Below are positions 8,888 through 49,903 of a stretch of DNA of 57,354 bases, piece by piece. This stretch comes from a virus. Its lineage: Duplodnaviria > Caudoviricetes. A program made the translations under genes and the position numbers. A model generated the notes under the pieces. It was not told where the DNA came from. It ran no database searches and worked only from the letters and a program-made list of their open reading frames with translations. The stretch spans positions 1-57,354 of IMG/VR virus record IMGVR_UViG_3300001279_000002; one strand, given 5' to 3'. Position 1 is the first letter of the stretch, and every line of letters starts with the position of its first letter.

Positions 8888-8944
8888 TTTCCGAAATTTT
8901 CAGGAGTTTTCCGATATTTTCCGAAGTTTTCCGATATTTTCCGA
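8888..8944. repeat. Six TTTTCCGA-like units at 10-bp period
   Basis: tttccgaaa ttttcaggag ttttccgata ttttccgaag ttttccgata ttttccga. Confidence 0.85.
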
Positions 8945-28168: not shown

Positions 28169-30985
28169 ATGTCCGAATCAAGTTGTAAAGTAAAAAATTC
28201 ACCCCAAGATGCATTAAGTTTTTTGCGCCTCCTGGGCGACGATTGGGGGCAGCGCCTCCACTCTTTCGACCAAGGGCGCAAAGACCTCAAGAATGAAACT
28301 ATTTTCGTAGGCGGCGCTGACGCTTTGGCGGATAGCGACGTTGTCGACGAAATAACAGCGTGGCTGAATGCTCGCCATGCCGCTGGGCAAAACATTTACT
28401 ACGCCCTCAACCCGATACTGCCAAGCCTGCCCAGGGAGCGCAAAGCGACAAAGGCGGACGTCGCCAAAGTCAGCTGGTTCCACGCGGATATTGACCCAAA
28501 AGACGAAAATCTTGCGGGGCCCGTGGAGGGCCAGAGCGAGCGCATCCAGAAAGAAACAGCGCGGCTTAACGAGCTCGTGACGAGCGAAGAACGCCTGAAA
28601 GCTCTTGGAATTGCGCCAGGACTCCCCACGATAGACGTATCGAGCGGCGGCCGTGGCGGAAGGCAACTCCTGTGGAAGCTTGCCGCTCCTATGGAGACGG
28701 CGGGGCAAGAGGCGATCATAGCCCTTGTGGAGAGCCACACGCGCGCCATAGAAACCGCGCTCACAGGAAGCGCCAAATGCTTCAACATCGATCGCGTGTT
28801 GCGCTTGCCGGGAACGGTGAACTTTCCCAATGCAAAAAAGAAAAAGCAGGGAGCGCAGATCGCCCTGGCGTCGCTCGTGTCCCATCACCCAGAGATCGCC
28901 CCGCCCCCCATGTACTTCCCACGCCTCCGCGCCGACGAAACCCTGGCGGATACGGCGCAGGGCGCGGAGGGCATAGCCCAAGGTGCGGCCAAGCCAGCCA
29001 AAAAGGAATGGTGCAAGGCGGAGCCGATTGATGGAGTCCCGACAGACCCGCTGGAGCTGGCGGGCTACCTGGAAAAGTGGGGCGTAGCGCTGCGCACGGT
29101 TGAGCGAATCTGCTTCGGGGGCAATGAAGACGAGCCCAAGATGTATGATTCGCGTTCCGAGAATATGTTCGGAGTTTGCCGGGAGCTGGCGCGCAAGGGA
29201 GTCCCTGACGATGTGATCATAACGCTGATCACAAACGAGGCTTACGCCATTTCCGGCCATGTGCTTGACCCTGAAAAGAATAAACAGCACAAGGGGCCTG
29301 TCCACTACGCTCAGAGGCAGGTTACGCGGGCAAAGGCGGCCAACGCCAAAAGCGCGGCGGAGGAAGCCAAGGCGGCCGACGCGGAAAAGCCAGCGCAGGC
29401 GCAGAAGGCGGCCGACGCGGGAGAGTGCGGCAAGCCGCCAGCCGGCGACGACGGCGACGGAAGCCGCCCGCTCAAGCCGATATTCAACAAGGGCGCCTAT
29501 TCCGAAATGGCGCGGGCCTATCGCGATCGCGTCCGCCCCACAATCCTTGTTGGCCCGTCCGGTGAATTCCTGGCGTGGGAAGGCGCGTGCTATCGCCCGA
29601 TAGACGCGGCTATGGTTGACCACGAGATTCACATATTTCTCGAAGGCAGCCGCCTGCGCATTCCCAGGGGGCGCGGGACGACGGTAATCGATACGGTCGA
29701 CGTGTTGGACACGAAAACCGTCAACGAAACGCGCAACGCCCTGACTCGCATCCAAACGATATCCGCCGACAAGCTTGATTTGCCGTGCTGGCTCAAGCGC
29801 GAAAAAGGCGACCTTCCGGCGAACGAGATTATTTCGTTTCCGAACGGCCTGCTCCATGTCCCATCCGGAACGATGCTCCCCCCAACGCCGCGCTTTTTCA
29901 CGCGCAACGCATTGGAGTTCTCATACGATCCGGAAGCGCCCAAGCCTACGCGGTTCCTGCAGTTTTTGCGGGAGACATGGGGCGAAGATTTAAGCTGCGT
30001 TCAGCTTGCCCAGGAGTGGGCGGGCTATACGCTCATCCCTGACAACTCGCACCATAAGATTCTGGTCCTGACTGGCGTCCAGCGCGGCGGTAAGGGGACG
30101 TATGCGCATATCCTGGAAAGCCTCGTGGGAAAGACAAACACGAGCTGGCCGGAGGCCAATGACCTGGGGGAAAAGTTCGGCGGGGAGGCCCTGATAGGGA
30201 AGTCCCTGGCGATCGTCCCTGAATTCGATCTGGACAGGACGACGCCGGTCAAGCGGATTATCTCCCGCCTGAAGAGCTATGCGGGCGGCGATAGCTTCTC
30301 CGTCCAGCGCAAAAATAAGCAGAACTGGGAGGGGCGGCCGTCGACGCGCGTCGTCATCCTGTCCAACAACGTCCTGTCGTTGCCGGAGGCGTCCGGCGCC
30401 ATGGCGGGCCGGTTCATGCCCCTCCCGATCGAAAACAGCGTTTTCGGCAAAGAGGACACGAAACTAGGGGAAAAGCTCAAGGCTGAATTGCCGGGGATTC
30501 TGCTCTGGGCCATTGAGGGATGGAAGCAGCTTAAAGAGCGTGGGTCCTTTATTCTTGGCGACGCCAGCAAATACGAGCTCGATAAGATATCCCGTTCGTC
30601 GTCTCCGTTGTTGGGCTTCATGGAGGATACGTTCACCTTCGACCCACGCGACAAAACAGCGTTTACGCCCAGGAGCGCCCTGTATCCCGTGTATCAGCGC
30701 TGGGCGAAGGCCAACGGCTACGGCGTGATGGGCATGCAGGCTTTCTGCAACGCCCTTGAAGCCGCTACAGGCCGCCAGCTGAAGCTTTCCCGCCCAGCTG
30801 GCAAGGAGCGCGGGTTTGTCGGCGTGACGATCACAGATGATTGCCAACCAAAAGACGACTTGAGCGGATATGAAGACAACTTCTCAAAAATGAGCCCGTC
30901 CATGAAGTTTGAGATGGATTTGGACAACCACAACAACCGCGTGCGGCCTGCGATCAACGGCGCCGCGTACGATCCGCCCTCCTAA
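28169..30985 (+). CDS. DNA primase-helicase (RepB-type AEP primase + D5/P4-like SF3 helicase)
   Basis: HADID, SSGG.G.Q..WKL, RVLRLPGTVN; FPNGLL (D5_N), GVQRGGKGT Walker A, C-terminal winged helix. Confidence 0.9.
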   Translation: MSESSCKVKNSPQDALSFLRLLGDDWGQRLHSFDQGRKDLKNETIFVGGADALADSDVVDEITAWLNARHAAGQNIYYALNPILPSLPRERKATKADVAKVSWFHADIDPKDENLAGPVEGQSERIQKETARLNELVTSEERLKALGIAPGLPTIDVSSGGRGGRQLLWKLAAPMETAGQEAIIALVESHTRAIETALTGSAKCFNIDRVLRLPGTVNFPNAKKKKQGAQIALASLVSHHPEIAPPPMYFPRLRADETLADTAQGAEGIAQGAAKPAKKEWCKAEPIDGVPTDPLELAGYLEKWGVALRTVERICFGGNEDEPKMYDSRSENMFGVCRELARKGVPDDVIITLITNEAYAISGHVLDPEKNKQHKGPVHYAQRQVTRAKAANAKSAAEEAKAADAEKPAQAQKAADAGECGKPPAGDDGDGSRPLKPIFNKGAYSEMARAYRDRVRPTILVGPSGEFLAWEGACYRPIDAAMVDHEIHIFLEGSRLRIPRGRGTTVIDTVDVLDTKTVNETRNALTRIQTISADKLDLPCWLKREKGDLPANEIISFPNGLLHVPSGTMLPPTPRFFTRNALEFSYDPEAPKPTRFLQFLRETWGEDLSCVQLAQEWAGYTLIPDNSHHKILVLTGVQRGGKGTYAHILESLVGKTNTSWPEANDLGEKFGGEALIGKSLAIVPEFDLDRTTPVKRIISRLKSYAGGDSFSVQRKNKQNWEGRPSTRVVILSNNVLSLPEASGAMAGRFMPLPIENSVFGKEDTKLGEKLKAELPGILLWAIEGWKQLKERGSFILGDASKYELDKISRSSSPLLGFMEDTFTFDPRDKTAFTPRSALYPVYQRWAKANGYGVMGMQAFCNALEAATGRQLKLSRPAGKERGFVGVTITDDCQPKDDLSGYEDNFSKMSPSMKFEMDLDNHNNRVRPAINGAAYDPPS

Positions 30986-31249
30986 GCCGCCGCAGTCCGG
31001 CGCAAAATCAGTCCACGGGCCGTTTTAACGGAATGAGCCCTGCTGTCTAAAAACCTCTCGCCTCGCCAGCGGAGGGCTTTCGCGTGTCTGGAATCCATCG
31101 ACCAAGCCAAAAACGAACGCTCTGGGCCCCCAGCTCCGGGGCGTTTTGGCGTGTTTTCGGCGTGAAGCAGGCGCAAAACCAGCGTGCTGGCGCGAAATTG
31201 GCGTGTTCTTGCGTAATTTCCGCGTAAGACGTATTTTTATTCTGTTTCG

Positions 31250-31635
31250 TTCTTTTTTCAAACCACGCCAAACCAAACTAGGCCCCTCAAAACCACGATT
31301 TCAGGCCAAACCAGACCCTGCAAACCAAGCTTTTGGGGCTCGCCCAGGGGGCGGACGGTCATTTTTGGCCTCGCTACAGGTTTTTTGTTGAGAGGCTCAG
31401 CAGCGGTGAAAAGGGCGGAAATCGAGAAAAAGCTTGGATTTGAGCTCCGCCGTTTGGATTTGAAGGGCCTATTTTGGAGCGAAACCAGCCTAACTTATTG
31501 TTTTATATACCTCCTCCACAAATCCACACATATGAATAGGTACTAGGGGGAGTGTATAGACATTAGTCTAATGATTAGACGTTAGTCTATATGCGCCGTA
31601 TATAGGACGGATTTTGCGCCTTGGATTTGTGGAGC
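31250..31635. other. Putative replication origin A
   Basis: Non-coding, downstream of primase; AT-rich core, TATAGAC..GTCTATA palindrome, many TGGAT/CCAAA short repeats; inverted homology to 49265-49440. Confidence 0.55.
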
Positions 31636-31826
31636 TGCAATTTAGACCTATTCCAGGGTTGGCCGGTGTTCTCCCCTGGGCAAGGGGAACACGCCGATTA
31701 CCCGCCGCCCCGCGCCTTGACGCCGCCCCTACTCCCCCCACGTTTCGTAGGCGGCCACAAAGGCCGTACAGCCCCCTTTACGCGGGGGCGCGCCAACCCA
31801 CAGCCGATCCTATGAATGGAGCCCCT

Positions 31827-32165
31827 ATGAGCCCGATACCCAGCCCCAGAGAGTATGTGTGCGGCGACAGCCTGTCGCTCGTAGCGTCCTACGTTTATCC
31901 CCGTGGCTGGAGGCGTACGAGCGAATCGACGTGGGAGCGCCCTGGGCGAGACGGCGCGCCACCTGTCCACGTCGTCTATGTTTCAGACCCCCGCCGCCTG
32001 ATGGGCGCGCTGGGCGGCGTGCTCCACATGGCGCCGTTCGTCGGCTCCAGGCCGCGCGCACGCCAAGACTTCCTGGATATGGCCGGATGTCGCCGCATGC
32101 GCGTCTCCCACCTGTTCGATATGGAGCGCGCCATTCATGAAGCGCAAAGGCGCTCTTCCCCATGA
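31827..32165 (+). CDS. Hypothetical protein
   Basis: GGAG RBS before MSPIPS. Confidence 0.45.
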   Translation: MSPIPSPREYVCGDSLSLVASYVYPRGWRRTSESTWERPGRDGAPPVHVVYVSDPRRLMGALGGVLHMAPFVGSRPRARQDFLDMAGCRRMRVSHLFDMERAIHEAQRRSSP

Positions 32166-32199
32166 TGGGGTAAAACAGTGGTGCGCGCCAAAAACCCAC

Positions 32200-32228
32200 T
32201 TTACAGCGGCCGAAGGCGCTGGCATGAT
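32200..32228 (+). promoter_or_regulatory. Phage consensus promoter copy upstream of ncRNA array
   Basis: TTTACA-GCGGCCGAAGGCGCTGG-CATGAT. Confidence 0.65.
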
Positions 32229-32669
32229 CCGCCCTGTAGCCGACGCGGCGCCCACAATGCCAAATCAGCGACATACGCCCCAAACGCAACCCGGAGGGGC
32301 TGGCTCCCCCCAAAGCCGCCAGCCCTTCCAACCCAAAACAGTAGTGTATGAAGTCGGAACGCCGTTCCGTTGGCTCAGACACCCACCGTGCTTTTTCTGA
32401 TAGGTAGGCGCGCCGACTTCACCGACTACTGCAACGCATAGCGCCATATGCGCAAGCACATTTCTGTTTCCGATGGTTTTGTCTGTGGAGTCGGCGGCGC
32501 GGCCTGGAATTTGGAACTCAAACTGATTTCGCCCAGCGCCGCCGACTTTCCGCTTTGAGCAAAAATGCCTGACTACAGACGTTTTTGCTGAAGGAGGCCC
32601 CGCTTAGCGTGGGGAGTCATGCTTGCCTCTTTCTGGCCACGCTCCGGATAAGTCGCCAGAAAAACAGGC

Positions 32670-32744
32670 GTGATTTTGTAGCATAGGGGTAGTGCGGCGG
32701 ATTTGTAATCCGTGTCTGCGCCGGTTCGAGTCCGGTCAACCACC
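32670..32744 (+). tRNA. Degenerate tRNA-Thr(TGT)-like element
   Basis: D arm GCAT/GTGC, anticodon arm GCGGA-TTTGTAA-TCCGT, T arm GCCGG-TTCGAGT-CCGGT; acceptor stem mispaired, no CCA. Confidence 0.65.
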
Positions 32745-33318
32745 TTCATCCGTTCTGGAGCGTCGAGGCCCGAAAATCTTGTGTTTCAAACAATTTTTCA
32801 ACCGCCTCGGCGCCTCAGAAACCCGGTTTATGGAATGCCGCCCGGAGACGAATGAGCACGGCTCCAGTAGTCTCGCCAGGGTTAACCGCTCCCCTCCGTC
32901 TCATGGGGAAACGGATGAAGCATAGACGGTGACAGCGCGGAAAGACGGCCCGGATTTAAAAGTTTCCTCCCCGGCGCAAGGTGCGCCACTCGATGCGCGA
33001 TCACGCATTTGAAGGGCCGGTTAAACTCCGTGGGGGAGGGCCAAGTTCCGGTAGCCTCCTGGATTTGAAACCCTCGGGGCACGCTAAAACCGGCGCCGCC
33101 CTGTTAGCGTGGGGCGGCGATAAATTAAAGCGTCGGCGAATGCCCAGGAAACTACATTTGGTATGACGTTTCCGAATCACTTGTCGCCGACGCCTTCGAA
33201 TGCCTGCCCCAGGAAGTAAGCACGGGGTTTCAAAGCTGTCTGCCGGGTCTCAGCCGCCTTGAAACCACCACGCGACAGGGGAGCCCGCGCAGAGGCTTCT
33301 GTAAATATCTGCGCATTT

Positions 33319-33403
33319 TGGCTGGTGGCGTAGCGGTTCCGCATTTCCCGTTCGGCCACAACGAATCGGAAAGACGCAGGTTCGAATCCTGCCCAGCCAA
33401 CTA
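33319..33403 (+). tRNA. tRNA-like element with elongated anticodon arm
   Basis: Acceptor TGGCTGG/CCAGCCA, D arm, T arm GCAGG-TTCGAAT-CCTGC; anticodon stem ~11 bp with loop GCCACAA; ends A-CTA. Confidence 0.7.
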
Positions 33404-33801
33404 ACCGCCATCGTTGCGGCCCGTCGTTCCTCATGCCCTAGCAAATCGCCTGAACCGATTTGCGCCATGGGCTAAACGCTCAAAGCAAAGGCTGACAGCG
33501 GAGGAGTTCAGGCGACGGGCCACAAGGACGGCGGCCATAACAGGCGGCGAGACGCGGGAATCTGCACTACTTACGGCCGGAAGGTTTTGCAGACGATCAA
33601 ATCCGCCGCGCGCGGCGCAAGGGCCTGGGCCTGATGAGGGTCTTTCGTTTCGAGACGGAGCGCGCCGAGTCCTACCGTTCCCCGCCTTCTCGGGGTCACA
33701 GAATCAGCCATGAATGACTTTCTCCATGTGGGGGAATCGCTCCGGCTGGCCCTCCCTGGGCAAGGATCAAAAGGCCCAATCTTCCTTCTATGCACGACTT
33801 A

Positions 33802-33831
33802 GGCGCGCTCCGTATGGGGCGCGCCCTTTTA
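33802..33831 (+). terminator. Rho-independent terminator
   Basis: GGCGCGCTCC-GTAT-GGGGCGCGCC followed by CTTTTATT. Confidence 0.75.
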
Positions 33832-33856
33832 TTGCGTGGTCCTCGCCCATATCCGG

Positions 33857-33883
33857 AGCGCACCGTTGTTTTCCGTTATCCAC
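33857..33883 (+). repeat. Left copy of 27-bp imperfect direct repeat (promoter-like)
   Basis: AGCGCACCGTTGTTTTCCGTTATCCAC, 23/27 identical to 41337-41363. Confidence 0.7.
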
Positions 33884-33962
33884 GCGTGGCGATCCTGGCA
33901 AACTTCGGGTTATCGCAGATTACAGCACACAAACGCAGGCAACCCTAGAGCAGAGGTAAACC

Positions 33963-34319
33963 ATGGATAATGTTGACCTAATCAATCAAACATTTCGATC
34001 AAACGGTTACAGCTATCACGCGGAACACGCGCGCAACGGCATGATGAATGTTTACGACGGCCCTGCGTTCGTCGTGCGCCTCCCAGTAAGCACATCAGCC
34101 GCTCAGGTGCTCCAGACGCTAAACTGCGGCGGCTCAACGACTGTTGTCGTGGATCGCGGCCCATCGTTTGGGCAATGCGTCGCGGAAGGCGTTGGCAACG
34201 GCTTGGGCTTTGGCCTTGGCGTCGCGGCGATCAACAGCATGTTTGGCCACGGCCACGATACGGTCATTCACGAAACTGTCGTCTATGACGACAGCGACGG
34301 CGATTTCTTCGACGACTGA
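33963..34319 (+). CDS. Small protein with glycine-zipper segment and acidic tail
   Basis: GAGG RBS; GVGNGLGFGLGVAA; ends DDSDGDFFDD. Confidence 0.65.
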   Translation: MDNVDLINQTFRSNGYSYHAEHARNGMMNVYDGPAFVVRLPVSTSAAQVLQTLNCGGSTTVVVDRGPSFGQCVAEGVGNGLGFGLGVAAINSMFGHGHDTVIHETVVYDDSDGDFFDD

Positions 34320-34359
34320 CGACGGGAAAAACAAGCGAAACCAGCCAGGGGAGAGCCAC

Positions 34360-36336
34360 ATGTTTGGATTTTCAAAGAGAAAGAAGCGGTTCACCCCTGA
34401 CCGGGATTCCGTTGTGTCTGTCTTTCAGGCCATTTTAAACAGGCTATGTGAAGGCCCCGGAGACGCGGATACATTTGATGTCATCATGATCGATGAAGGA
34501 GACGGAACGACTGCCTCTATCTCGGTTACGCCATCCACCAGACACGCTGTAGTTTCGATTAATCCAATTATCACGTCTCGCCCAAATGAGGACCTGTGGA
34601 CGGCGCTCGCCCATGAGCTTGGTCATAGCTATGCGGACGGAAAGGGCCACGGCCCGGAGTGGTTCGCATGGATGCTAGATCGCGGAATCACGGTGAACAC
34701 CGTGACGATTGAGGGCCGAGAAGTCCAGGGCGAGCCCCACCGCATCATTCGCGGAGGGAGGTTAGATCGTCTCCGCAACAAGTGGCATGAGGAGCACGGT
34801 GTAGAGCCGGACTCCATGTCAGAAAAGTTTGAGCCCCGAATGATTGATTTTCGGGACGTCTCCCCCACGCGCTATTCCCCCCCGGTCCCGTTTACGGAGA
34901 ACCCGGCCGCGATGGCGTACATCGCCCGCAACCCCCCGTCTGGGCCGACTACCCCGGACGTTTATTCTCGTGGTTATGCGGCGGCCTCTCGGAAAGCGCA
35001 ACAGAAAGGAATGGAGAATATGACAGGCCGCGCGTCGGGGTGGTCCACGCCACCGTCAGGAACGACACATCTTGACCAGTCCGGAAATATCAGCGCCCCG
35101 GTAACCGACCTGACGGGGTGGACTGTGGCGCTCGATGTCTCTGCTTCCATGGATTATGCCGTTACAGGGAGCAACAGTTCCCGCTTGGGCGTAGCCAAAC
35201 AACAGCTGCGGAGCTATTGGCCGGAGGGCGGAGGCGCGCGTCTCCTGACATTTTCTCAAGTTATTTCAGAATACGATTCCCCAAAAAAGATTCCCATTCT
35301 TGCAGAGAGTGGGACGCTTTACGGAATACTTTTTCACGCTATTGCCGATAGCGGAAACAGCGAACAAGTATTGATCATATCTGATGGAGATTTGGTTGAT
35401 GATGATAAGTACTCCTCCCAGGAAACTAGGGAAACGGAAGAGTCCGTTCTTGCAGCGCGCCAACGTGCCATTGACTCCGGCGTACGCGTTATCTCCGCAA
35501 TATTCATCGGGGAGATAAATGACCCCGGCTTCTCGTTCATGCGCAAGCTCTGTTATGGCGGGGGCGTGTGCACAGCAGCCCTTGACCCTGGCGCCATGGA
35601 GCAGGCGCTTAACGCTTCAATGAAGGGAGCCCGAGCAGTGGCGAATAACCCTCTAGGCGCCCCCTCCGTAACGGCGGCGGCGCGCCATATCGCTGACCTG
35701 ACCCCATCCATCCAACAACAGGCTACGCATCTAAAACACCGTGTGGAGATTGACTCCCGTGTCGTCGAGCTTGGCCAAACAGTCGCCGACGTTGTCGCCA
35801 ACGTCCACGAGCTTCAGGGCCGGACGATCATCAGTGAATCATTCACTGGTCTTCATGCCCAGGCGGCGGGGATGGCCGTGGACGCCATCCAAAACCAGCG
35901 CGCCCAAGAGGCCGTTGACGCGACGGCGCAAGAGCAGTCGTTAGCCGCTCTGCGCGGGAGCCTGCAAGAGGGCGGCCAAAGGGCGCTTGGGCAGGTCAAG
36001 GCCGGATATGAGGGCATGATTCTCAACCACGCTGCGAAAGTGGCGGCGCTTCCTGTTCATGGTTCTGCTGGAGGCGTTTATGTGAAGGATACAAGACTTG
36101 ACGAGTCCGTGTACGCCAAGGCGAGGGCGCTCCTCAGTGCGCAGAGACAAGGGCAAGCGCAAGAGTCCCGTGTGCTCCCTGCTCCAGCCAGGGAAGCTCA
36201 CCCGCTCCCTCCTCCGGTCAGGGAAACCCGTATGTTGCCTCCCCCAAATCAACATGTCGCAACTTCGCCGATCCTTGACGGGGGGCGTCCCCTATTCAGC
36301 GTCGCCGCCAGGAGGGTTCGCAATGATAGTAACTGA
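34360..36336 (+). CDS. SprT-like zinc metalloprotease fused to VWA domain and helical tail
   Basis: LAHELGH...GHGPEW (HExxH); MIDAS DVSAS...GT...ISDG; start refined to MFGFSK. Confidence 0.8.
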   Translation: MFGFSKRKKRFTPDRDSVVSVFQAILNRLCEGPGDADTFDVIMIDEGDGTTASISVTPSTRHAVVSINPIITSRPNEDLWTALAHELGHSYADGKGHGPEWFAWMLDRGITVNTVTIEGREVQGEPHRIIRGGRLDRLRNKWHEEHGVEPDSMSEKFEPRMIDFRDVSPTRYSPPVPFTENPAAMAYIARNPPSGPTTPDVYSRGYAAASRKAQQKGMENMTGRASGWSTPPSGTTHLDQSGNISAPVTDLTGWTVALDVSASMDYAVTGSNSSRLGVAKQQLRSYWPEGGGARLLTFSQVISEYDSPKKIPILAESGTLYGILFHAIADSGNSEQVLIISDGDLVDDDKYSSQETRETEESVLAARQRAIDSGVRVISAIFIGEINDPGFSFMRKLCYGGGVCTAALDPGAMEQALNASMKGARAVANNPLGAPSVTAAARHIADLTPSIQQQATHLKHRVEIDSRVVELGQTVADVVANVHELQGRTIISESFTGLHAQAAGMAVDAIQNQRAQEAVDATAQEQSLAALRGSLQEGGQRALGQVKAGYEGMILNHAAKVAALPVHGSAGGVYVKDTRLDESVYAKARALLSAQRQGQAQESRVLPAPAREAHPLPPPVRETRMLPPPNQHVATSPILDGGRPLFSVAARRVRNDSN

Positions 36337-36820
36337 GGCGATGGTTGTCCGCCGCCAGCACGATAGGGAGCACCGCAGGCGGGGCTGGCTGATGGTTCCT
36401 TCAGACTACATCGATCAGGTTAAAAAGATCGTGGCTGATTCATTTGACGCTATGGAAGACGCCATTGAACAATACGAATTAATATCTGATAAAAAAATAG
36501 ACCGCCACCCTGCTCTTCTGAAGCTGACGGAAAGCCTTGAAGAGAAGATAATAAAACAAGTCGTGTCGAAGCTATACGCCTGGGGCTGTAAACAATGGAA
36601 TTCCTCCCCAGACGAAGAAAACGTTATCACTAATGAAGCTGCGTATACTTATATATCGCAACTTGTCGCGGGCCTGTTCGCCAATGATACAGCGAAAATA
36701 TATGATTTCTCTCTTGTAGATAGGAGTGACCCCGTCAAGGTGTTAGCTCTTCTTGAACTTCAAAATCTTGAGGAGAGAATAAGAGACGATTTAATATCGG
36801 TTATTGATGGGTGGCGATAG
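36323..36820 (+). CDS. Hypothetical helical protein
   Basis: GGAGG RBS before MIVTEA; overlaps both neighbours; AT-rich. Confidence 0.65.
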   Translation: MIVTEAMVVRRQHDREHRRRGWLMVPSDYIDQVKKIVADSFDAMEDAIEQYELISDKKIDRHPALLKLTESLEEKIIKQVVSKLYAWGCKQWNSSPDEENVITNEAAYTYISQLVAGLFANDTAKIYDFSLVDRSDPVKVLALLELQNLEERIRDDLISVIDGWR

Positions 36821-37329
36821 TGGCGACGGATTTTATTACAGGCGTTGTGCTCCCAACAATGGGGGCGGCATGCGTAGCAGGGACAGCAATGTTTTATGTC
36901 GCCTCTGGGCTCAACCACGGCGGCGCGCAAGAAAGAGGGAAAAGAGATTTGGGACGTTCACTAGTCGACGCCACCCCGCCACCCAGGAAAATTGGGCGAC
37001 GCCGAGAGCTCATTCTTACGCAGACCGAACGCTATGCGCGCATAGAGGCAAAGAAAGACGCCACGAAGCACGGCCCGCGCCTTGACGCGCACGACGTGTT
37101 TTACCAGTGGTTTGCGACGCATATCTTGTTGATAGCCAACCCTACGAACGCGGATGTCATCCCATATGATGACTGGATACAGAGTTACGTGGGCTACTGC
37201 AACGCGCACAAACACCCATTGCTTGATAGTGACGAACAGATCGTGGAAACGATTAAATCCTATGCGCAGGCGAGTCGCTGTTCTATTGGAAATCTGGGAG
37301 AGTTTAATGGCGGCAGACTTAAGGGGTGA
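36811..37329 (+). CDS. Membrane-anchored protein with possible primase-type winged-helix C-terminus
   Basis: N-terminal TM; C-terminal DVFYQWF...YVGYC..H.HP pattern. Confidence 0.6.
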   Translation: MAIVATDFITGVVLPTMGAACVAGTAMFYVASGLNHGGAQERGKRDLGRSLVDATPPPRKIGRRRELILTQTERYARIEAKKDATKHGPRLDAHDVFYQWFATHILLIANPTNADVIPYDDWIQSYVGYCNAHKHPLLDSDEQIVETIKSYAQASRCSIGNLGEFNGGRLKG

Positions 37330-39427
37330 TAGGACGCGCACCGCGCCTGACGCCGCTCAAACGTGCACATTCATCGAAGCGCTTGACCCAGACAGAACCA
37401 TTTGGCAGTTGGGGGCGTACTTCGGGCGCACATGGGGCTGGGCGGGGTTCTACGGCCCGTCACGACGGGCGCAAGCACAAGAATGGATAGCGGGGCGCTA
37501 TCGGGCGGGGGCAGGAGTGTGGCTCCTCTTGGGGGATGTCAGCGCGCCACATGCTCATGGTCTAGCCCCGTCATCTATCGTGGGAGTCCGTTTCATCGCC
37601 GCAACGGCCGGGAGCTCCGTCGACCTGTTGTCCCCCTGGGCAGGAGATCCCCTTACAGTCTATCAGGATCAAACGGGGCAGTTCGTTGGAATTTGGAAGC
37701 TCCCCCGCGCCATCGCCCAGGAAGACGAGGCCGAAGAGTGCGGCAAAGCCGCCGCCCGTTGCTGTGTCGGGAGATTGTCCGCGTCCCCGCTTCTCCGCGT
37801 AGCCCCCCTCCCCGGCGATTTCCGCGCGGCGGGCGGCGGCCGGGGGTCTATCGTTCGCATGCCGCTTCATGGCCGGACGGCGACTCCGCTTGTTCCTGCG
37901 CTGCCGGTTCTCGCCCAGGAAGGCTATGCAGCGACCGCTCTTGCGTTGCCATCCGCAGAGCGAACTGTGATTGAGGATCAGGACCGCTGGTTGGCGCACT
38001 CGATAAGCGAGGCCCTGGAGTCGCAAAAGATCACAGGCGGCCGCATCGTTGGAATGACGCGCGGCCCGCTCGTCACCGTGTGCGACTATGAGCCCGCGCG
38101 TTCAGAGAAGAGCGCCCGCGTCGTCAAGTCATCAAACGATGTCGCGCGGCTCATCAAGGCCGCCTCCGTCATCGCCCGCGAAGACACGGCGCGGGGCGTC
38201 GTCTGTTTTGACGTATCCAATGAACGGAGAGACATCGTCCATCTGCGCGGCGTCCAGGCGTCGGCCGAATGGGGGAGCGCCAAGCGCTCTATGGCGCTCC
38301 CATATATCCTGGGCGTAACGAGCGCGGGAGAGCCGCTTATCATAGACTTCGCCAAGGCGCCCCATGTGCTCAAGGCGGGGTCGACAGGGAGCGGGAAGTC
38401 AACGGGCATGAACTCCGGAATCGTGTCGCTTCTGGAGGCGCGCGGACCCGATAAGCTGCGCGTGATCCTTATTGATCCAAAACGCGTCGAGCTATCGATT
38501 TACGGCCGCCACAAACAGGCGCCCTCAGATATCCCCCACCTGCTCGCCCCTATCGCCAACGACGCGACCAAGGCGGCGGCGGCGCTTGAATGGGCCCTGG
38601 GAGAGATGCTCCGGCGCTATGAGCTATTAGAAGAGGAGGGCGTCTCCAACGTCGCAGAATATAACGAACAGTTGGCGGAGTTCCGCGCGGCCGGGGATTC
38701 CGGCGTCCCTGACGATATGCCCCGCATCCTGATCGTGATCGACGAATATGCGATGCTCCTCCAGCAGGCGGAGCGCCGCGTAAAGGACGTTGTTCGCCGC
38801 CTGTCGGCTGAAGCGCGCGCGGCGGGAATACACATCCTGCTGGCGACGCAGCACCCGAGCGCAAAAATGATGTCCGGCGATCTGCGGACTAATTTTCCTG
38901 TGGCCGTAACCTACCGCATGGCCAAAAACGAAGGCTCTATCGTGGCCACGGGGTCGACGATCGCCCGTCGTCTTCTGGGCGATGGAGATGGGCTCCTTGA
39001 CCGTGGCGACGGCTTCGAGCGCATCCACGCGCCCTATATTTCGAAGGCCGAAATAAGGGAGCGCCTCGCGCCCGTCCGCGCCCTGGGCGAGCCTGTTTTC
39101 GCCTTCGACTACACGGGCGCTCGTCCAGTGAGGCCGTCTGACGCCGGGTCTGGATACGACGATTCAGGGCCTGTTTTCGACGCCGGGAGCGGGGATTTCA
39201 CGCCGGAAGAGGAGAACGAACACGGGGTGAAAGAAAGCCCAAGAGGGGCGGCAATGTCAGAACTTTGTAAGATCATGCCCAGGGGGCAGCAGATGCGAAG
39301 GGCCGATGTCTGGCGCGAAATGAAGGCGTGCGGCCACTCAAAAGGAACCATGGACAGGGCGTCCGATGACATGGGAATCGACAAGGTCGACGGCAAGGGA
39401 AATGACCAACTGTGGACGCGCCCATAA
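37307..39427 (+). CDS. FtsK/SpoIIIE-family ATPase with N-terminal degenerate primase-like domain
   Basis: GPLVT, APHVLKAGSTGSGKS, LIDPKRVEL, EMLRRY, IVIDEYA, ARAAGIHILLATQHP, LLGDGDGL. Confidence 0.9.
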   Translation: MAADLRGDRTRTAPDAAQTCTFIEALDPDRTIWQLGAYFGRTWGWAGFYGPSRRAQAQEWIAGRYRAGAGVWLLLGDVSAPHAHGLAPSSIVGVRFIAATAGSSVDLLSPWAGDPLTVYQDQTGQFVGIWKLPRAIAQEDEAEECGKAAARCCVGRLSASPLLRVAPLPGDFRAAGGGRGSIVRMPLHGRTATPLVPALPVLAQEGYAATALALPSAERTVIEDQDRWLAHSISEALESQKITGGRIVGMTRGPLVTVCDYEPARSEKSARVVKSSNDVARLIKAASVIAREDTARGVVCFDVSNERRDIVHLRGVQASAEWGSAKRSMALPYILGVTSAGEPLIIDFAKAPHVLKAGSTGSGKSTGMNSGIVSLLEARGPDKLRVILIDPKRVELSIYGRHKQAPSDIPHLLAPIANDATKAAAALEWALGEMLRRYELLEEEGVSNVAEYNEQLAEFRAAGDSGVPDDMPRILIVIDEYAMLLQQAERRVKDVVRRLSAEARAAGIHILLATQHPSAKMMSGDLRTNFPVAVTYRMAKNEGSIVATGSTIARRLLGDGDGLLDRGDGFERIHAPYISKAEIRERLAPVRALGEPVFAFDYTGARPVRPSDAGSGYDDSGPVFDAGSGDFTPEEENEHGVKESPRGAAMSELCKIMPRGQQMRRADVWREMKACGHSKGTMDRASDDMGIDKVDGKGNDQLWTRP

Positions 39428-39644
39428 CGTCCCACGTCCCACGGGCCAGCGCCAAACTAAGCGCAGATTTTGCCGAAAAAGGCGCTGGCCCGTGAGACAT
39501 TTTTTGAGCCATCCAAATAAAATCAATGGCATAGCAAAATCCCGCACCGATGTTTAGGGGGGACAAAACGGCCGAAAACATGGACTGTTTAAACTCCGGC
39601 GCCATGCGTCTGGAGCCCTTAAACACGACATGAAGGAGCCGAAA

Positions 39645-40922
39645 ATGCCGTCTGCAAACCGCCATAGCGGGACGCCGCCCTTGTTCATATATGGCCTTTT
39701 CGCCGTCGCCTTTGTCGCGCTTGGGCTCACAATGTTTATGTCGTTGGCATGGGCGAAAAGCTCGCCAGACGGGATGGAGCGTTACGCCGCATACGCCGTT
39801 GTCGCTATCACAGGCCCAGGGTCTTTGATGTGTTTCACGGCCGCAGTATGGGCCCATAGACAGGGCGGGATGGGCGTCACAGCCCTCTCTGCGGCGTTCT
39901 GGATCGCCCTTAGCGCGGGCGAAATAAACACCGCTGGGAAGTGGCTGGAGGCCCGCGCGCGTGGCTCTTCAGCTCCTTTCGAACAGGCAAAACACGCCGC
40001 GCAGGAGGCCCAAAAGGACCTCGCGACGGAGCGCGCGGCGCTTGATTCCATCCGAAAAAAACTTCTGGACGAACGCAGGGAGGCCAAAATAGACGAGCTC
40101 CGAAAGGACAAAGCGACGGCGGAAAAGCGCGTCTTCGAGCTGTCCACAAGGTCCGTTGAGCCTGTCGCTGGGCACGTGGAGAACTGGTTCTCCGGCAATG
40201 GGGCGTATGCTGCGGCACTCCTAATGGTTGTAGGTCACGGGTTCTTTGCGATCGCCCTTTTCTGCCGGGATTCCCATCGTGGAGCCCCTGTTCAGTTCGA
40301 CCCGCGCGCCCTCCGCCCAGAGGAGCTGGAGGCTGTTCGCAGGTTGCTGGAGCTGGGCGAAACCACGCTGACCATTTCGCCCACTCCGCCCAAACCCGCC
40401 CAGCTGGTTGCGCCTGGGCGAACTGGTTATAACCACGCAACCAGTGGGCGCCCAACCACGCCCAACCACGCCCAACCAGCCATAACCAGCGGCGCCCACG
40501 CCCAACCACATAACCAGCTGGTTGACGCGCAAGCCCTTGGTTATGAAGAAAAACCACTTGGGCGCCCAGACGCCCAACCAGCTGGTTATGTGGTTGGCCC
40601 AACCAGTTTGGGCGCGCAACCAGACGCCCAGCCAACCAGTTTGGGCGAAGTGGGCGGAAGTTTGGGCGCCCAAATCCGCCCAGTGGGCGCCCAGCCCCAA
40701 CCAGCCGCCCAACCAGTTCCGCCCAAACATGGAACGGCTCTAAGATTGGTTGAAACCCGCCCAGCTCTAACGGCGTTTCAGATCACTGTTCGGGACATGC
40801 TAGACGCCGGGATGACAGAGCGGCCGATAGCCACAGCGACAGGCCGGAAGCGCCACGAGGTTAGGTCGGCTAAGGCCGCCATCGCAGCGCATGCAACTAA
40901 AAGTAGCAAAGAGGGAACCTAA
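39645..40922 (+). CDS. Multi-TM, coiled-coil protein with low-complexity linker and C-terminal HTH
   Basis: AAGGAG RBS; 3 TMs, coiled coil, 4th TM, AQP-rich region, GMTERPIATATG..RHEV HTH. Confidence 0.7.
   Translation: MPSANRHSGTPPLFIYGLFAVAFVALGLTMFMSLAWAKSSPDGMERYAAYAVVAITGPGSLMCFTAAVWAHRQGGMGVTALSAAFWIALSAGEINTAGKWLEARARGSSAPFEQAKHAAQEAQKDLATERAALDSIRKKLLDERREAKIDELRKDKATAEKRVFELSTRSVEPVAGHVENWFSGNGAYAAALLMVVGHGFFAIALFCRDSHRGAPVQFDPRALRPEELEAVRRLLELGETTLTISPTPPKPAQLVAPGRTGYNHATSGRPTTPNHAQPAITSGAHAQPHNQLVDAQALGYEEKPLGRPDAQPAGYVVGPTSLGAQPDAQPTSLGEVGGSLGAQIRPVGAQPQPAAQPVPPKHGTALRLVETRPALTAFQITVRDMLDAGMTERPIATATGRKRHEVRSAKAAIAAHATKSSKEGT
40400..40725. repeat. Dense CGCCCAACCA / AACCAG repeats in both orientations inside CDS
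   Basis: Repeated cgcccaacca, aaccagctggtt palindromes, ttgggcg inverted copies. Confidence 0.75.
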
Positions 40923-40925
40923 AAA

Positions 40926-41333
40926 ATGAGCCGTAAATCGCTGACGCCTGAAAATGACAGGTGCGGAGAGCACCCCATATTTGGGGAGACTTCTCCGGCC
41001 GCCGACGCTTTCGCAATGTCAATCCTTACCCCAACGCTAACGGCGTTCGTGACGCTGCTCGTCTTCAGCCTTTTTCTGATGGCCTATGATCTGGCCTATG
41101 GGAAAAACGGATATCTGGAGGAGCTGGATTTGATCATCCCCGCTGTGGCGGCGTTCGCTACATCAACGGTTGTATTCGTGAGGATTCGTCATGTCGCCTT
41201 CATCCCCGCTTACGCCACCGTCGCGGTTGTCGCCGCCGTGCTCCTGTGGACGCACCCCATGAACCCATATTCCACAAGAGAGGATAATTGCTCTTTCTAT
41301 GGCGTATGCGAGGGATGGGGCCCAAAACCATAA
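40926..41333 (+). CDS. Three-TM membrane protein
   Basis: Three hydrophobic segments; last gene of cassette. Confidence 0.65.
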   Translation: MSRKSLTPENDRCGEHPIFGETSPAADAFAMSILTPTLTAFVTLLVFSLFLMAYDLAYGKNGYLEELDLIIPAVAAFATSTVVFVRIRHVAFIPAYATVAVVAAVLLWTHPMNPYSTREDNCSFYGVCEGWGPKP

Positions 41334-41336
41334 ACC

Positions 41337-41363
41337 AGCGCACCGCTATTTTCCCTTATCAAC
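41337..41363 (+). repeat. Right copy of 27-bp imperfect direct repeat (promoter-like)
   Basis: AGCGCACCGCTATTTTCCCTTATCAAC. Confidence 0.7.
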
Positions 41364-48864: not shown

Positions 48865-48868
48865 GAGG

Positions 48869-49120
48869 CTAAACCTTTTCCTTGGCCTTCCTGGCGGGTT
48901 TTTCCGGAGGCGTCGCCTGTTGTTTTACAGCAATGACAATGAGCTTAGCAATGCGTGAGGCTAAATCCGCGCGCGCATTTGGGTGCAGCGGCGTGTCAAA
49001 GTAGTAGCGGTTCTCCGCCGCCCACTCCGTTATGAGGCGCTCCGCCTCGCCCAGGGGGGATGTCTGGGGCTCCTGCCAAGCGTCTATCTGCTCCTCCGTG
49101 AGTTCGGGATTGATCGCCAT
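48869..49120 (-). CDS. Hypothetical protein
   Basis: GGAG RBS before MAINPEL; immediately upstream of portal. Confidence 0.5.
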   Translation of the reverse strand: MAINPELTEEQIDAWQEPQTSPLGEAERLITEWAAENRYYFDTPLHPNARADLASRIAKLIVIAVKQQATPPEKPARKAKEKV

Positions 49121-49259
49121 GCGTGGGGCTCCATCGGCTGTGCGCGGCGTGGATCGCGGCGCGTGGATCGCGATGTTAGGCGTCGGCGCGGCGGGGGGCA
49201 AGGCGTTCGCCCAGGGGAGGGCCGCCCCTGGGGCAATCCACAAAACCCCGGTTCGCGAA

Positions 49260-49710
49260 TTGATTCCCCTATATGCTGCACGTATAGACTAACGTATATA
49301 TGATATATATACCACTATATACGTTAGTCTATATGCTCCCCTCATATGTGGATCGATTTACATATATATGTGTGGATTAGTTACTCATACATATACATAT
49401 CAATAGGTTAGCTTGGATTTCAAACCAAAAAAGGCCCCAAAATGACCCTGAATCGTGGATTTGCTCCAAACGATCCTCAAAAAACCGTGGATCAAACCAA
49501 ACCAAACCAAAGGCAGAGGGGTTTTTGGCGTCCGGAGGCGCTCCCCCTGGGCAAACAGGGCGGGGCCGTATGCAGCAATGCGGCGCGCCGAAGAATATTC
49601 GTTTGTGCTGATATTTTGGATCGTTTGGATCAAATCCCCGATTTTGGAGCGCCAAACCAAACCAAACCAAACCAAACCAAACCAAAAAGCGCCCCGTAAA
49701 AGGGGCGCTG
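49260..49710. other. Putative replication origin B / packaging-related cis element
   Basis: TATAGACTAACGTATATA..TATATACGTTAGTCTATA palindrome, AT-rich, (CCAAA)n arrays at ~49493 and ~49652; inverted homology with 31465-31610. Confidence 0.55.
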
Positions 49711-49903
49711 GTTGTGGCGTCAGGCTGACTGTTTGATAATCACGCCCGACGCCCTGGCCAAAACCGGCCTCAATCTGGCCAAAACCGGCCTCAGTCAAGA
49801 AAAGAATCTCATTGAAATCAACAGATTGTCTCTTGAAACACCCTTGCCGACGGTCGCCAGTCAAATAAGCCTTAAATAAATTCACCATTAGTCAAAAAAC
49901 CAC

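What the first reader, a model, noticed from the sequence alone, without database searches (positions are those of the whole stretch)
33857..41363. Repeat-bounded seven-gene cassette resembling a dsDNA translocation/segregation machine
Seen: tightly coupled operon of glycine-zipper protein, SprT-like protease-VWA, helical protein, TM-winged-helix protein, FtsK ATPase, 4TM-coiled-coil-HTH protein and 3TM protein. It is flanked by a 27-bp direct repeat (23/27 identical) and is partly more AT-rich than the core genes. Known: Streptomyces plasmids move dsDNA with FtsK-like TraB plus TM/coiled-coil Spd proteins; FtsK/HerA and VWA proteins also occur in conflict systems. Inference: a phage-borne membrane DNA pump for partitioning or cell-to-cell spread (for example in budding alphaproteobacteria), or a novel superinfection-defence module.
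Basis: partly seen in the sequence, partly recalled or inferred. Interest (0 to 1): 0.8.

Follow-up and report, generated by a model that had tools for sequence, protein, structure and literature searches.

The report
Phage FtsK pump with primase-fold head
An uncultured wetland phage carries a rare, conserved gene module built around a DNA-pumping FtsK motor that has swapped its membrane anchor for a primase-like domain, next to membrane proteins and a dense DNA motif array hidden inside a gene; what it does for the phage is still unknown.

Summary
The seven ORFs, the 23/27 direct repeat and the AT-rich stretch are real. The window is a 57-kb fragment of a tailed phage. g5 is a true FtsK alpha/beta motor, but it has no 4TM anchor and no gamma domain. 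Its first ~190 residues model as an archaeo-eukaryotic primase (AEP) fold closest to S-2L PrimPol and RepB' (Z 12.8, 12.0). Only one acidic residue is invariant there, so it is probably not an active primase. g2 is a SprT-like HExxH / VWA-like protein from a family with 17 relatives among 1.84 billion representatives. The order g2-g3-g4-g5 is kept in two metagenome loci whose FtsK N-domain is 42-44% identical.

It is not one tight operon: a strong terminator-like hairpin separates g1-g5 from g6-g7. New here: g6 carries 27 CGCCCA/TGGGCG motifs in 450 bp, in all three frames and both orientations, against 4.6 expected for the same protein (0 of 5000 resamplings).

Best reading (0.4): a sequence-directed, membrane-associated DNA-handling machine for the phage's own DNA, working like TraB/clt/Spd but not a member. 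Rivals are a replication initiator, a conflict module, and unrelated neighbours. No known defence system matches as a whole. The repeat does not show mobility.

The parts
33802..33835 (+). terminator-like hairpin with a T-run, upstream of the cassette
   Evidence: 10-pair stem, 9 GC pairs; -22.9 kcal/mol, z -2.4
33857..33883 (+). copy 1 of the 27-bp direct repeat, 80 nt before the g1 start
33963..34319 (+). g1, 118 aa, with a glycine-rich hydrophobic segment (GxGxGxG). No family hit. No segment passes my TM threshold.
34360..36336 (+). g2, 658 aa. SprT-like HExxH metallopeptidase domain, VWA-like middle part (DxSxS, SDG), helical C-terminal part with a basic tail.
36392..36820 (+). g3, 142 aa (165 aa if it starts at 36323). 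AT-rich gene. Conserved in L003 (29% identity, E 5e-23).
36811..37329 (+). g4, 172 aa. One N-terminal membrane segment and a conserved C-terminal domain. Overlaps g3 by 10 nt and g5 by 23 nt. Conserved in L002 and L003.
37307..39427 (+). g5, 706 aa. Soluble FtsK-family translocase with three parts: an AEP-fold domain, the alpha/beta motor, and a small C-terminal domain.
37307..37885 (+). g5 residues 1-193: primase (AEP) fold, nearest to S-2L PrimPol and RepB'. Only D77 is invariant among acidic residues.
37997..39112 (+). g5 residues 231-602: FtsK alpha/beta motor, with Walker A GSTGSGKS and Walker B DEY invariant in 8 of 8 sequences
39436..39505 (+). strong terminator-like hairpin followed by TTTTTT, between g5 and g6
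   Evidence: (I11)
39645..40922 (+). g6, 425 aa as called in the protein collection (the ORF opens at 39630). Membrane segments, then a coiled-coil-like stretch, a further membrane segment, a P/Q/A-rich linker, and a C-terminal helix-turn-helix-like stretch. The coiled coil and HTH were judged by eye only.
40314..40763 (.). array of 27 CGCCCA/TGGGCG motifs (18 forward, 9 reverse; four GGGCGCCC palindrome cores) inside the g6 linker
40502..40597 (.). perfect 23-nt inverted repeat with a 50-nt spacer, inside the array
   Evidence: I1
40926..41333 (+). g7, 135 aa, three membrane segments. No family hit.
41337..41363 (+). copy 2 of the 27-bp direct repeat, starting 3 nt after the g7 stop codon
41360..41397 (+). 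terminator-like hairpin with a T-rich tail, after repeat copy 2
   Evidence: -28 kcal/mol, z -3.9

Best explanation
The module is a phage-encoded, sequence-directed DNA-handling machine built around a soluble hexameric FtsK-type dsDNA translocase (g5).

In g5 the cellular 4TM anchor is replaced by a primase-fold (AEP) domain that has probably lost catalysis and serves as a DNA- or partner-binding head. The gamma domain is replaced by another small C-terminal domain. g5 is made together with a single-pass membrane protein (g4, overlapping reading frames), a small AT-rich gene product (g3) and a SprT-like/VWA-like protein (g2). A second unit encodes two polytopic membrane proteins (g6, g7).

The array of 27 CGCCCA/TGGGCG motifs inside g6 would be the cis site where the machine is loaded or where phage DNA is tethered. 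That is the role clt plays for TraB, KOPS for FtsK, or a centromere for a partition system. The motor would then move or organise phage dsDNA at the inner membrane.

Shown: gene order and its conservation, domain identities, the loss of anchor and gamma domain, and DNA-level selection on the array.

Inferred: that module proteins bind the array, that the motor is membrane-tethered, that the substrate is phage DNA, and the biological purpose (replication organisation, segregation or genome internalisation).
For: Motor:
- The family profile matches solved FtsK at E 1.5e-91 over residues 231-602.
- Walker A and Walker B are invariant in 8 of 8 family members.

Architecture:
- None of the 8 family members (P0001-P0008) carries PF13491 (4TM) or PF09397 (gamma). 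The bacterial FtsK hits listed below them mostly do.
- No hydrophobic segment is found in g5.
- The N-domain model (pLDDT 78.6, pTM 0.74) matches AEP domains in an all-against-all structure scan of 48,161 chains: 6ZP9 Z 12.8, 3H20 Z 12.0, 3H25 Z 10.9, then PriS, HP0184, LigD PolDom and pRN1 ORF904.
- Foldseek gives the same top hits. The ESM Atlas model independently points to clusters carrying RepB_primase, D5_N, DUF3987 and DUF927.

Synteny:
- L003 keeps g2 (C-terminal part), g3, g4 and g5. L002 keeps g3 (C-terminal part), g4 and g5.
- The g2 homologue P0125 and the FtsK homologue P0004 both have a longest contig of 39,556 bp from the same sources.

Array:
- 27 motifs occur in 450 bp, against 1.2 per 400 nt in the window overall.
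- They lie in all three frames and both orientations.
- Resampling synonymous codons for the same protein gives 4.6 +/- 2.0 (maximum 13). Permuting the region's own synonymous codons gives 8.0 +/- 2.0 (maximum 16). In both tests 0 of 5000 reach 27.

Precedent: TraB recognises 8-bp repeats in clt and works with translationally coupled membrane Spd proteins, including the 4TM coiled-coil DNA-binding SpdB2 (PMC4447253, passages read).
Against: - No experiment and no binding evidence exists for any step.
- The C-terminal domains of g4, g5 and g6 match no DNA-binding family up to E 10.
- A terminator-like hairpin separates g5 from g6/g7.
- Linkage of g6, g7 and the array to g5 is seen only in this phage lineage. 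The only g6 relative found is 83% identical and lies on a 1,996-bp contig.
- The array has both orientations, and the motif shows no polarity along the genome, unlike KOPS.
- The SprT/VWA protein has no role in this model.
- A tailed phage of a presumably Gram-negative host has no obvious need to pump dsDNA across a membrane after entry.
- Four of the five AF2 models of the N-domain were poor (pLDDT 46-52), and the 3-sequence model failed.
Confidence: 0.4

Rival explanations
1. Replication-initiator module. g5 is a primase-helicase-type initiator (AEP domain, hexameric NTPase, C-terminal DNA-binding domain) in which an FtsK motor replaced the helicase. The CGCCCA array is its origin (iterons). 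The membrane proteins anchor replication to the membrane.
For: - The domain order mirrors AEP-helicase-HTH proteins of mobile elements. AEP domains are fused to RepA, DUF927, DUF3987, VirE, D5 and MCM modules (PMC5862659, passages read).
- The N-domain's nearest folds are RepB' and S-2L PrimPol, both replication enzymes.
- The iteron-like array lies about 0.9-1.3 kb downstream of g5.
- The module follows the D5-type primase gene and the tRNAs on the same strand.
Against: - Only one acidic residue (D77) is invariant in the N-domain, and no His or Gln motif II is recognisable. S-2L PrimPol needs E85, D87 and D146 (PMC8065100).
- From general knowledge, FtsK motors track dsDNA and are not known to unwind it.
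- The phage already has a D5-type primase-helicase, PolA and an SF1 helicase.
- Another iteron-like array (TTTCCGAAAT x5.7 at 8888-8944) lies nearer the polymerase genes.
Confidence: 0.2
2. Conflict module. The genes act against competitors or the host, through superinfection exclusion, anti-defence or host takeover. The motor would strip or expel DNA-bound factors or incoming DNA, and the SprT-like protease would cleave targets.
For: - FtsK-like ATPases occur in defence proteins. PADLOC SspH (E 9.5e-42) and mad8 (E 1.6e-25) match the motor.
- SprT-like peptidases in jumbo phages are proposed to target host proteins (PMC7824862, passage read).
- The families are rare and patchy: 7 close FtsK relatives and 17 g2 relatives in 1.84 billion representatives.
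- Several small membrane proteins are present, as in exclusion systems (general knowledge).
Against: - PADLOC matches only g5, and only its motor part. 0 of the other 7 proteins tested match anything.
- Gene order is conserved down to 42-44% N-domain identity, which suggests a stable core function.
- A self-encoded DNA motif array under DNA-level selection fits a cis site on the phage's own genome better than a weapon.
Confidence: 0.2
3. Not one machine. g1-g5 and g6-g7 are independent neighbours. The array is an unrelated cis site, such as a packaging (pac) site, a centromere for a partition system outside the window, or a regulatory site. The 27-bp repeats are module-boundary or regulatory sequences.
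For: - A strong terminator-like hairpin and a roughly 200-nt gap lie between g5 and g6.
- Linkage of g6/g7 to g5 is untested in distant relatives.
- Hexamer arrays inside coding regions are known for pac sites, for example P1 pacA (recalled, not checked).
- The window holds other repeated short elements that look regulatory.
- In one run a contig about 86% identical (47 other letters in 334) stops matching at 41341, inside repeat copy 2. That fits a mosaic junction.
Against: - The array is 5.7 kb from the portal gene, and no terminase gene was found in the window.
- The g6 linker that holds the array is the best-conserved part of the protein against its 83%-identical relative.
- The array is immediately adjacent to a DNA motor whose cellular and plasmid relatives read short repeated motifs.
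Confidence: 0.15

Closest known systems
Cellular FtsK/SpoIIIE DNA translocases (e.g. P. aeruginosa FtsK, PDB 2IUT/2IUU)
   Same: The alpha and beta motor domains match (profile E 1.5e-91), with 35-41% identity to bacterial FtsK, mostly alphaproteobacterial among the named hits. Reading of a short G-rich motif is possible but untested.
   Different: There is no 4TM anchor, no long linker and no gamma (KOPS/XerD) domain. An AEP-fold domain sits at the N-terminus. The gene is encoded by a tailed phage.
Streptomyces plasmid TraB / clt / Spd dsDNA transfer system (pSVH1; PMC4447253)
   Same: An FtsK-like motor lies close to a cluster of short repeats, alongside overlapping genes for small membrane proteins. 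One of those proteins has several membrane segments, a coiled-coil-like stretch and a putative DNA-binding part, like SpdB2.
   Different: NCBIfam plasmid_TraB scores 42.6 bits against a cut-off of 800. The motor is soluble. The repeats are 6-bp cores in both orientations inside a gene. No sequence similarity to Spd proteins was tested or found. The host is probably Gram-negative and non-mycelial.
AEP primase-helicase fusions of mobile elements (PrimPol-PV1 supergroup: RepB', All3500-like such as S-2L PrimPol; PMC5862659, PMC8065100)
   Same: The N-domain fold is the same (Z 12.8, 12.0 and 8.1 to 6ZP9, 3H20 and 2ATZ). These are the three structures that PMC8065100 groups together. The overall order is the same: AEP, then a hexameric NTPase, then a small C-terminal domain.
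   Different: The NTPase is an FtsK motor. The main text of PMC5862659 does not mention FtsK or HerA (0 occurrences; its supplementary architecture tables could not be seen). The catalytic acidic triad is not conserved.
Phage FtsK/SpoIIIE-like proteins (PHROG 1358 and 3551; Bacillus SPO1-like phages, mycobacteriophages)
   Same: They share the motor domain (E 8.6e-64 and 2.9e-60). tblastn hits 269 phage records at under 60% identity. From general knowledge, their function is likewise unknown.
   Different: The matches cover only residues 214-595. The N-domain, the C-terminal domain and the neighbouring genes are not shared. No phage or plasmid record matches the cassette DNA.
Phage phi29 p16.7 membrane organiser of replicating DNA
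   Same: The concept is similar: a membrane anchor, a coiled coil and a C-terminal DNA-binding domain that tethers phage DNA to the membrane, as proposed here for g6.
   Different: No sequence or fold comparison was made. g6 is three times larger, polytopic, and carries the putative site within its own gene.

Membership tests
FtsK/SpoIIIE translocase | alpha and beta motor domains with Walker A and Walker B | tested here: met
   Pfam FtsK_SpoIIIE E 2.8e-42 and FtsK_alpha E 1.7e-5. PDB FtsK E 1.5e-91. GSTGSGKS and DEY are invariant in 8 of 8 sequences.
FtsK/SpoIIIE translocase | N-terminal membrane anchor (FtsK_4TM) | tested here: not met
   No PF13491 in any of P0001-P0008. No hydrophobic segment in g5.
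FtsK/SpoIIIE translocase | C-terminal gamma winged-helix domain (PF09397) | tested here: not met
   Absent from the Pfam hits of P0001-P0008. The C-terminal 105 aa scanned alone gives no such hit up to E 10.
Streptomyces TraB/clt/Spd system | TraB equivalog model | tested here: not met
   NF041214 plasmid_TraB scores 42.6 bits against a cut-off of 800.
Streptomyces TraB/clt/Spd system | cluster of short repeats (clt) read by the motor's C-terminal domain | tested here: inconclusive
   A 27-motif array lies 0.9-1.3 kb downstream and is under DNA-level selection. Who binds it is unknown.
Streptomyces TraB/clt/Spd system | Spd-type membrane proteins homologous to SpdB2 | not tested
   No SpdB2 sequence was compared. 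g6's 30 nearest Atlas clusters are all unnamed.
Archaeo-eukaryotic primase (PrimPol-PV1 supergroup) | AEP fold | tested here: met
   VIA-align Z 12.8 (6ZP9), 12.0 (3H20) and 10.9 (3H25), with 149-155 residues aligned at rmsd 3.2-3.8. Foldseek top hits are the same, at E 1.2e-3 to 1.4e-2. The model's pLDDT is 78.6.
Archaeo-eukaryotic primase (PrimPol-PV1 supergroup) | conserved catalytic acidic triad (motifs I and III) and motif II His/Gln | tested here: not met
   Of 24 invariant columns in the 8-sequence N-domain alignment, only D77 is acidic and none is His or Gln. There was no residue-level structural superposition, so a non-canonical site is not excluded.
SprT-like zinc metallopeptidase | SprT domain with HExxH | tested here: met
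   Pfam scores 25.7 bits against a cut-off of 25.6 on residues 1-280. The whole protein scores 24.0, below the cut-off. The profile hits Spartan 6MDX at E 6.4e-5. HExxH is present in 10 of 10 full-length rows. The result is borderline.
von Willebrand factor A domain | VWA fold with a MIDAS DxSxS motif | tested here: inconclusive
   DxSxS is present in 12 of 14 rows, with SDG downstream. There is no Pfam hit. PDB profile hits are weak: E 0.015 to 8S05 and 0.17 to the PARP4 vWA region. No structure model was made.
Known anti-phage defence systems (PADLOC 2.0) | several components matching one system | tested here: not met
   Only g5's motor matches (SspH, mad8). 0 of the other 7 proteins match.
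Mobile cassette bounded by direct repeats | flanking direct repeats plus a recombinase, or empty-site variants | tested here: inconclusive
   The repeats are present. No recombinase family was found in g1-g7. No joint skipping 33857-41337 appears in 4 runs, but the listed matching contig pieces are at most 725 nt long.

The most novel reading that the evidence does not exclude
A tailed phage has built a TraB/clt-like system from a captured FtsK motor. The soluble pump uses a dead primase domain and a new C-terminal domain to load at a 27-motif site hidden inside a membrane-protein gene, and is held at the inner membrane by that protein and its partners. It would actively move phage genomes. 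Possible purposes are pulling the rest of the genome in after first-gene expression, or delivering copies to both daughter or bud cells. This would be the first sequence-directed dsDNA pump serving a tailed phage's own genome outside the capsid-packaging step.
Probability: 0.2. Interest if true: 0.8.

Novelty: new variant of a known kind. Interest (0 to 1): 0.6.

Why it matters
FtsK-like genes are common in phages, but from general knowledge none has a demonstrated role. This family offers an unusually readable case. The motor has lost both parts that tie cellular FtsK to division, the membrane anchor and the gamma domain. It has gained a primase-fold head. It sits beside a candidate cis site that can be tested directly by gel shift, plasmid assays or synonymous scrambling.

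The AEP-FtsK fusion is a domain architecture I could not find in print. Two full-text searches turned up no paper whose listing or read passages describe it, and the main text of the AEP survey PMC5862659 has 0 mentions of FtsK. Its supplements were not visible.

The array also shows how a dense protein-binding site can be overprinted on a coding region in all three frames.

If the module organises or moves phage DNA at the membrane, it would add a new step to the phage life cycle. If it is a conflict system, it would be a new one.

Tried and rejected
- DnaA-box reading of the 27-bp repeat. TTATCCACA with at most 1 mismatch occurs 5 times against 6.1 expected. Rejected.
- KOPS-like genome-wide polarity of CGCCCA. 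No skew pattern appears across 5-kb bins.
- g4, g5 and the phage's D5 primase sharing domains. BLASTP gives nothing. hhalign of the g4 against the g5 families gives probability 0.04.
- Sequence profile of the N-domain against the PDB. The only hit is a spurious repeat match to a designed kelch-like protein.
- AF2 of the N-domain with 3 sequences. It failed (pLDDT 50.2), so I repeated it with 8 sequences.
- Complex prediction of g5 with g4 residues 60-172. No verdict (score 0.00). This is no evidence either way.
- Context searches. blastn of the cassette against phages and plasmids found no match. Pattern scans of IMG/VR and GTDB genomes with g5, g2 and their alignments found no relatives. Searches failed because alignment A3 was too divergent. 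The metagenome scan gave only two short contigs.
- The word-based protein search for g2 found only g2 itself. The full HMMER scan then found 17 relatives.
- Reads. Parts of the region without cover in runs X4-X7, and the absence of a cassette-skipping joint, prove nothing because the contigs are short.
- Terminase. Three Pfam terminase families and the TerL of the nearest portal relative gave no match in the window. The record is only about 54% complete, so this does not show absence.

Full report
WHAT THE WINDOW IS

The window is a 57,354-bp linear virus record that CheckV rates about 54% complete. Its own FtsK protein is also seen on a 76,393-bp contig. It is a tailed phage:
- P22-type portal at 46429-48864 on the minus strand (E 8.8e-117)
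- family A DNA polymerase
- D5-type primase-helicase at 28169-30985
- SF1 helicase and two SNF2 helicases
- an amidase
- tRNA-Thr and tRNA-Gly at 32671-33401

The nearest portals are about 40% identical. They come from Rhizobium, Microcystis and Paracoccus podoviruses. Runs holding the DNA are wetland metagenomes, plus two soil runs with small unlaid shares.

THE OBSERVATION

The seven ORFs are there. The 27-bp repeat is real at 23/27. The test is circular, because the pattern was built from the two copies. In an all-against-all count the pair is one of 9 direct pairs of at least 23/27 in the window. Several of the others look like repeated promoter-type elements.

Copy 1 follows a terminator-like hairpin and lies 80 nt before g1. 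Copy 2 starts 3 nt after the g7 stop codon and precedes a terminator-like hairpin. The two copies therefore do not sit in the same regulatory position.

The AT-rich part is g3, at 41.7% GC. Its homologues in two other loci are also AT-rich, so this is no mark of recent import.

The 'operon' is at least two units. g2-g3-g4-g5 abut or overlap. Then comes a -39.9 kcal/mol hairpin (z -5.7) with a T6 tail and a gap of about 200 nt. g6 and g7 follow, 3 nt apart.

THE MOTOR (g5)

Residues 231-602 are a canonical FtsK alpha/beta motor. A search of 5.8 billion proteins scored 8,000 candidates and found 4,661 hits. Seven of them (P0002-P0008) are full-length relatives at 43-74% identity. All are metagenomic and 662-704 aa long, and none has the 4TM or gamma domains. 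From the next hit on, matches cover only the motor at 29-41% identity. Most of the named ones are bacterial FtsK with both extra domains, largely from Alphaproteobacteria such as Hyphomonas, Henriciella and Phenylobacterium, but also Pandoraea and Clostridia. The identities are flat, so no donor can be named.

THE N-DOMAIN OF g5

No family or PDB sequence match was found. The ESM Atlas model of this protein resembled viral clusters carrying RepB_primase, D5_N, DUF3987, DUF927 and PriCT_1, with TM 0.61-0.68. I treated that as a lead only.

I tested it with AlphaFold2. With three sequences the model failed (pLDDT 50.2). With eight sequences the best model reached pLDDT 78.6 and pTM 0.74, but the other four models stayed at 46-52.

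The best model was compared with 48,161 PDB chains without any prefilter. The top matches were:
- cyanophage S-2L PrimPol AEP domain: Z 12.8, 154 residues aligned, rmsd 3.4
- RepB' of RSF1010: Z 12.0 and 10.9
- PriS of the eukaryotic replisome: Z 8.3 and 8.2
- HP0184: Z 8.1
- LigD PolDom, Prim-PolC, pRN1 ORF904 and the NrS-1 primase-polymerase: Z 7.6 down to 5.5

Unrelated folds begin at about Z 7 and below. Foldseek ranks the same families first, with best E 1.2e-3. PMC8065100 (passages read) groups S-2L PrimPol, RepB' and HP0184 together, which matches this result.

The fold assignment is therefore well supported. Catalysis is not. Among the 24 invariant columns of the eight N-domains only D77 is acidic, and there is no invariant His or Gln. 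S-2L PrimPol needs E85, D87 and D146. RepB'-type enzymes keep a Gln in motif II and an essential Arg in motif IV (PMC5862659). I could not superpose residues, so a non-canonical active site is not excluded. I consider an inactive, binding-type AEP domain more likely.

THE OTHER PROTEINS

g2. A full HMMER scan of 1.84 billion representatives found 17 relatives (18 hits with E up to 0.001, including g2 itself; 12 with E up to 1e-10). I aligned 16 sequences and left out two short fragments, P0134 and P0139. The family shares these features:
- HExxH followed by HGP.W (10 of 10 full-length rows)
- DxSxS (12 of 14 rows with residues there)
- F/I-SDG and LCRGGG motifs
- an LPD motif followed by a long helical stretch and a basic tail

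The family profile hits the Spartan SprT domain at E 6.4e-5 and VWA-containing chains only weakly.

g3, g4. No family hits. g4 has one membrane segment. Its conserved C-terminal domain reminded me of the C-terminal domain of D5/P4-type primases, but that is a recollection and no test supported it.

g6. It has two strong hydrophobic segments and two weaker ones, a charged coiled-coil-like stretch and a P/Q/A-rich linker. Its N-terminal 240 residues resemble 30 of 30 unnamed Atlas clusters; the three best, and the two best structural matches, are mostly viral (features 0.92-0.93; structure TM 0.64-0.65).

g7. It has three membrane segments.

Defence models. PADLOC matched only the motor.

SYNTENY

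No relative exists in the phage or plasmid collections, IMG/VR or the GTDB genomes by the searches I could run. Two short metagenome contigs carry g5 homologues.
- L003 has the g2 C-terminal part (31% identity, E 2e-7), g3 (29%, E 5e-23), g4 (28%) and the g5 N-domain (42% in A7, 45% in A5) in the same order.
- L002 has the g3 end, g4 (29%) and g5 (44% in A7, 47% in A5).
- The g2 homologue P0125 and the g5 homologue P0004 each have a longest contig of 39,556 bp from the same two sources. I take this as the same contig.

So g2-g5 is a conserved unit. For g1, g6 and g7 I have no evidence beyond this lineage.

In four further wetland runs from four studies, short contigs cover most of the region: 22 to 30 of 30 bins. 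Some are nearly identical and some are under 90% alike. No joint skips the cassette, but the listed matching pieces of these contigs are at most 725 nt long. One contig about 86% identical stops matching at 41341, four bases into repeat copy 2. That is a hint of a mosaic junction and nothing more.

THE ARRAY

The 3' half of g6 holds 27 copies of CGCCCA/TGGGCG between 40314 and 40763: 18 forward and 9 reverse. The window mean is 1.2 per 400 nt, and no other 400-nt window outside this region exceeds 4. The array includes four GGGCGCCC palindrome cores and a perfect 23-nt inverted repeat.

The motifs fall in all three reading frames: forward 5, 4 and 9; reverse 0, 6 and 3. A repeated peptide therefore cannot explain them.

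I kept the amino-acid sequence and redrew synonymous codons from the phage's own usage. That gives 4.6 +/- 2.0 motifs with a maximum of 13. Permuting only the region's own synonymous codons gives 8.0 +/- 2.0 with a maximum of 16. None of 5000 trials in either test reaches 27. The array is therefore selected at the DNA level.

The linker that carries it is the best-conserved part of g6 against its 83%-identical relative. The motif shows no polarity along the genome.

HOW IT MOST LIKELY WORKS

The evidence shows three things: a soluble dsDNA pump with two non-FtsK end domains, made together with membrane proteins and a protease/VWA protein, and lying next to a dense cis site. The closest working model is FtsK with KOPS, and especially TraB with clt and the Spd proteins. 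In that system the motor's C-terminus reads 8-bp repeats, and translationally coupled membrane proteins, including the 4TM coiled-coil DNA-binding SpdB2, form a translocation complex. SpdB2 homologues occur in some actinophages (PMC4447253).

I therefore favour, at 0.4, a membrane-associated, array-loaded DNA-handling machine for the phage's own DNA. It is not a member of the TraB family.

The AEP-motor-small-domain order equally recalls primase-helicase initiators, with the array as origin (0.2). That reading is weakened by the missing catalytic residues, by the nature of FtsK motors, by the phage's own D5-type primase-helicase, and by a second iteron-like array at 8888-8944.

A conflict role (0.2) and unrelated neighbours (0.15) remain open.

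NOVELTY AND LIMITS

Phage FtsK-like genes are known. This architecture and gene set are not, as far as I could search. The two full-text searches turned up no paper whose listing or read passages describe such a fusion. PMC5862659 has no mention of FtsK or HerA in its main text, and its supplements are closed.

Everything functional here is inference.

Noticed in passing
window 8888-8944: Tandem array TTTCCGAAAT x5.7 with a 10-bp period (or a 20-bp unit x2.8 at 91% matches). It is iteron-like and lies a few kb from the polymerase genes, so it is a candidate replication origin or operator.
   Followed up: no
window 32187/49891, 49881/52643, 54596/56649: Three further direct-repeat pairs of 23/27 in or near intergenic regions, with TTTACA-containing cores such as CAAAAAACCACTTTACA..GGCCGA. 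They look like repeated phage promoters or operators. One coincides with a sigma-70-like match at 32200.
   Followed up: no
window 46429-49888 and the whole window: No large terminase was found. Three Pfam terminase families and the TerL of the nearest portal relative give no match. In that relative TerL lies directly upstream of the portal. Here only two small ORFs (124 and 162 aa, no family hits) precede the portal. The record is only about 54% complete, so the gene may lie outside it.
   Followed up: partly
window 31000-33900: About 2.9 kb between the D5-type primase gene and the cassette has no convincing ORF, only tRNA-Thr and an unusually long (83-nt) tRNA-Gly(GCC).
   Followed up: no
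window 2855-3013: A perfect 63-bp tandem repeat, 2.5 copies, inside the minus-strand ORF 2228-3172.
   Followed up: no
window 36821 and 40672 (run X7), 41341 (run X6): Variants in other wetland runs. An 18-nt in-frame insertion of GGCGATAG-like repeats lies at the g3/g4 junction. One contig leaves the window sequence inside the array and continues with CAACCAGTCGCT-type repeats. Another contig starts matching exactly at repeat copy 2.
   Followed up: partly
window 53305-54057: A 250-aa ORF with a weak PLD-like nuclease/phosphodiesterase domain: PLDc_2 E 1.9e-5, 24.9 bits, below the cut-off of 27.
   Followed up: no
proteins P0129 and P0137 (g2 family): Two different g2-family members (525 and 536 aa) both report a longest contig of 11,902 bp from the same source. 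Some elements may therefore carry two paralogues.
   Followed up: no
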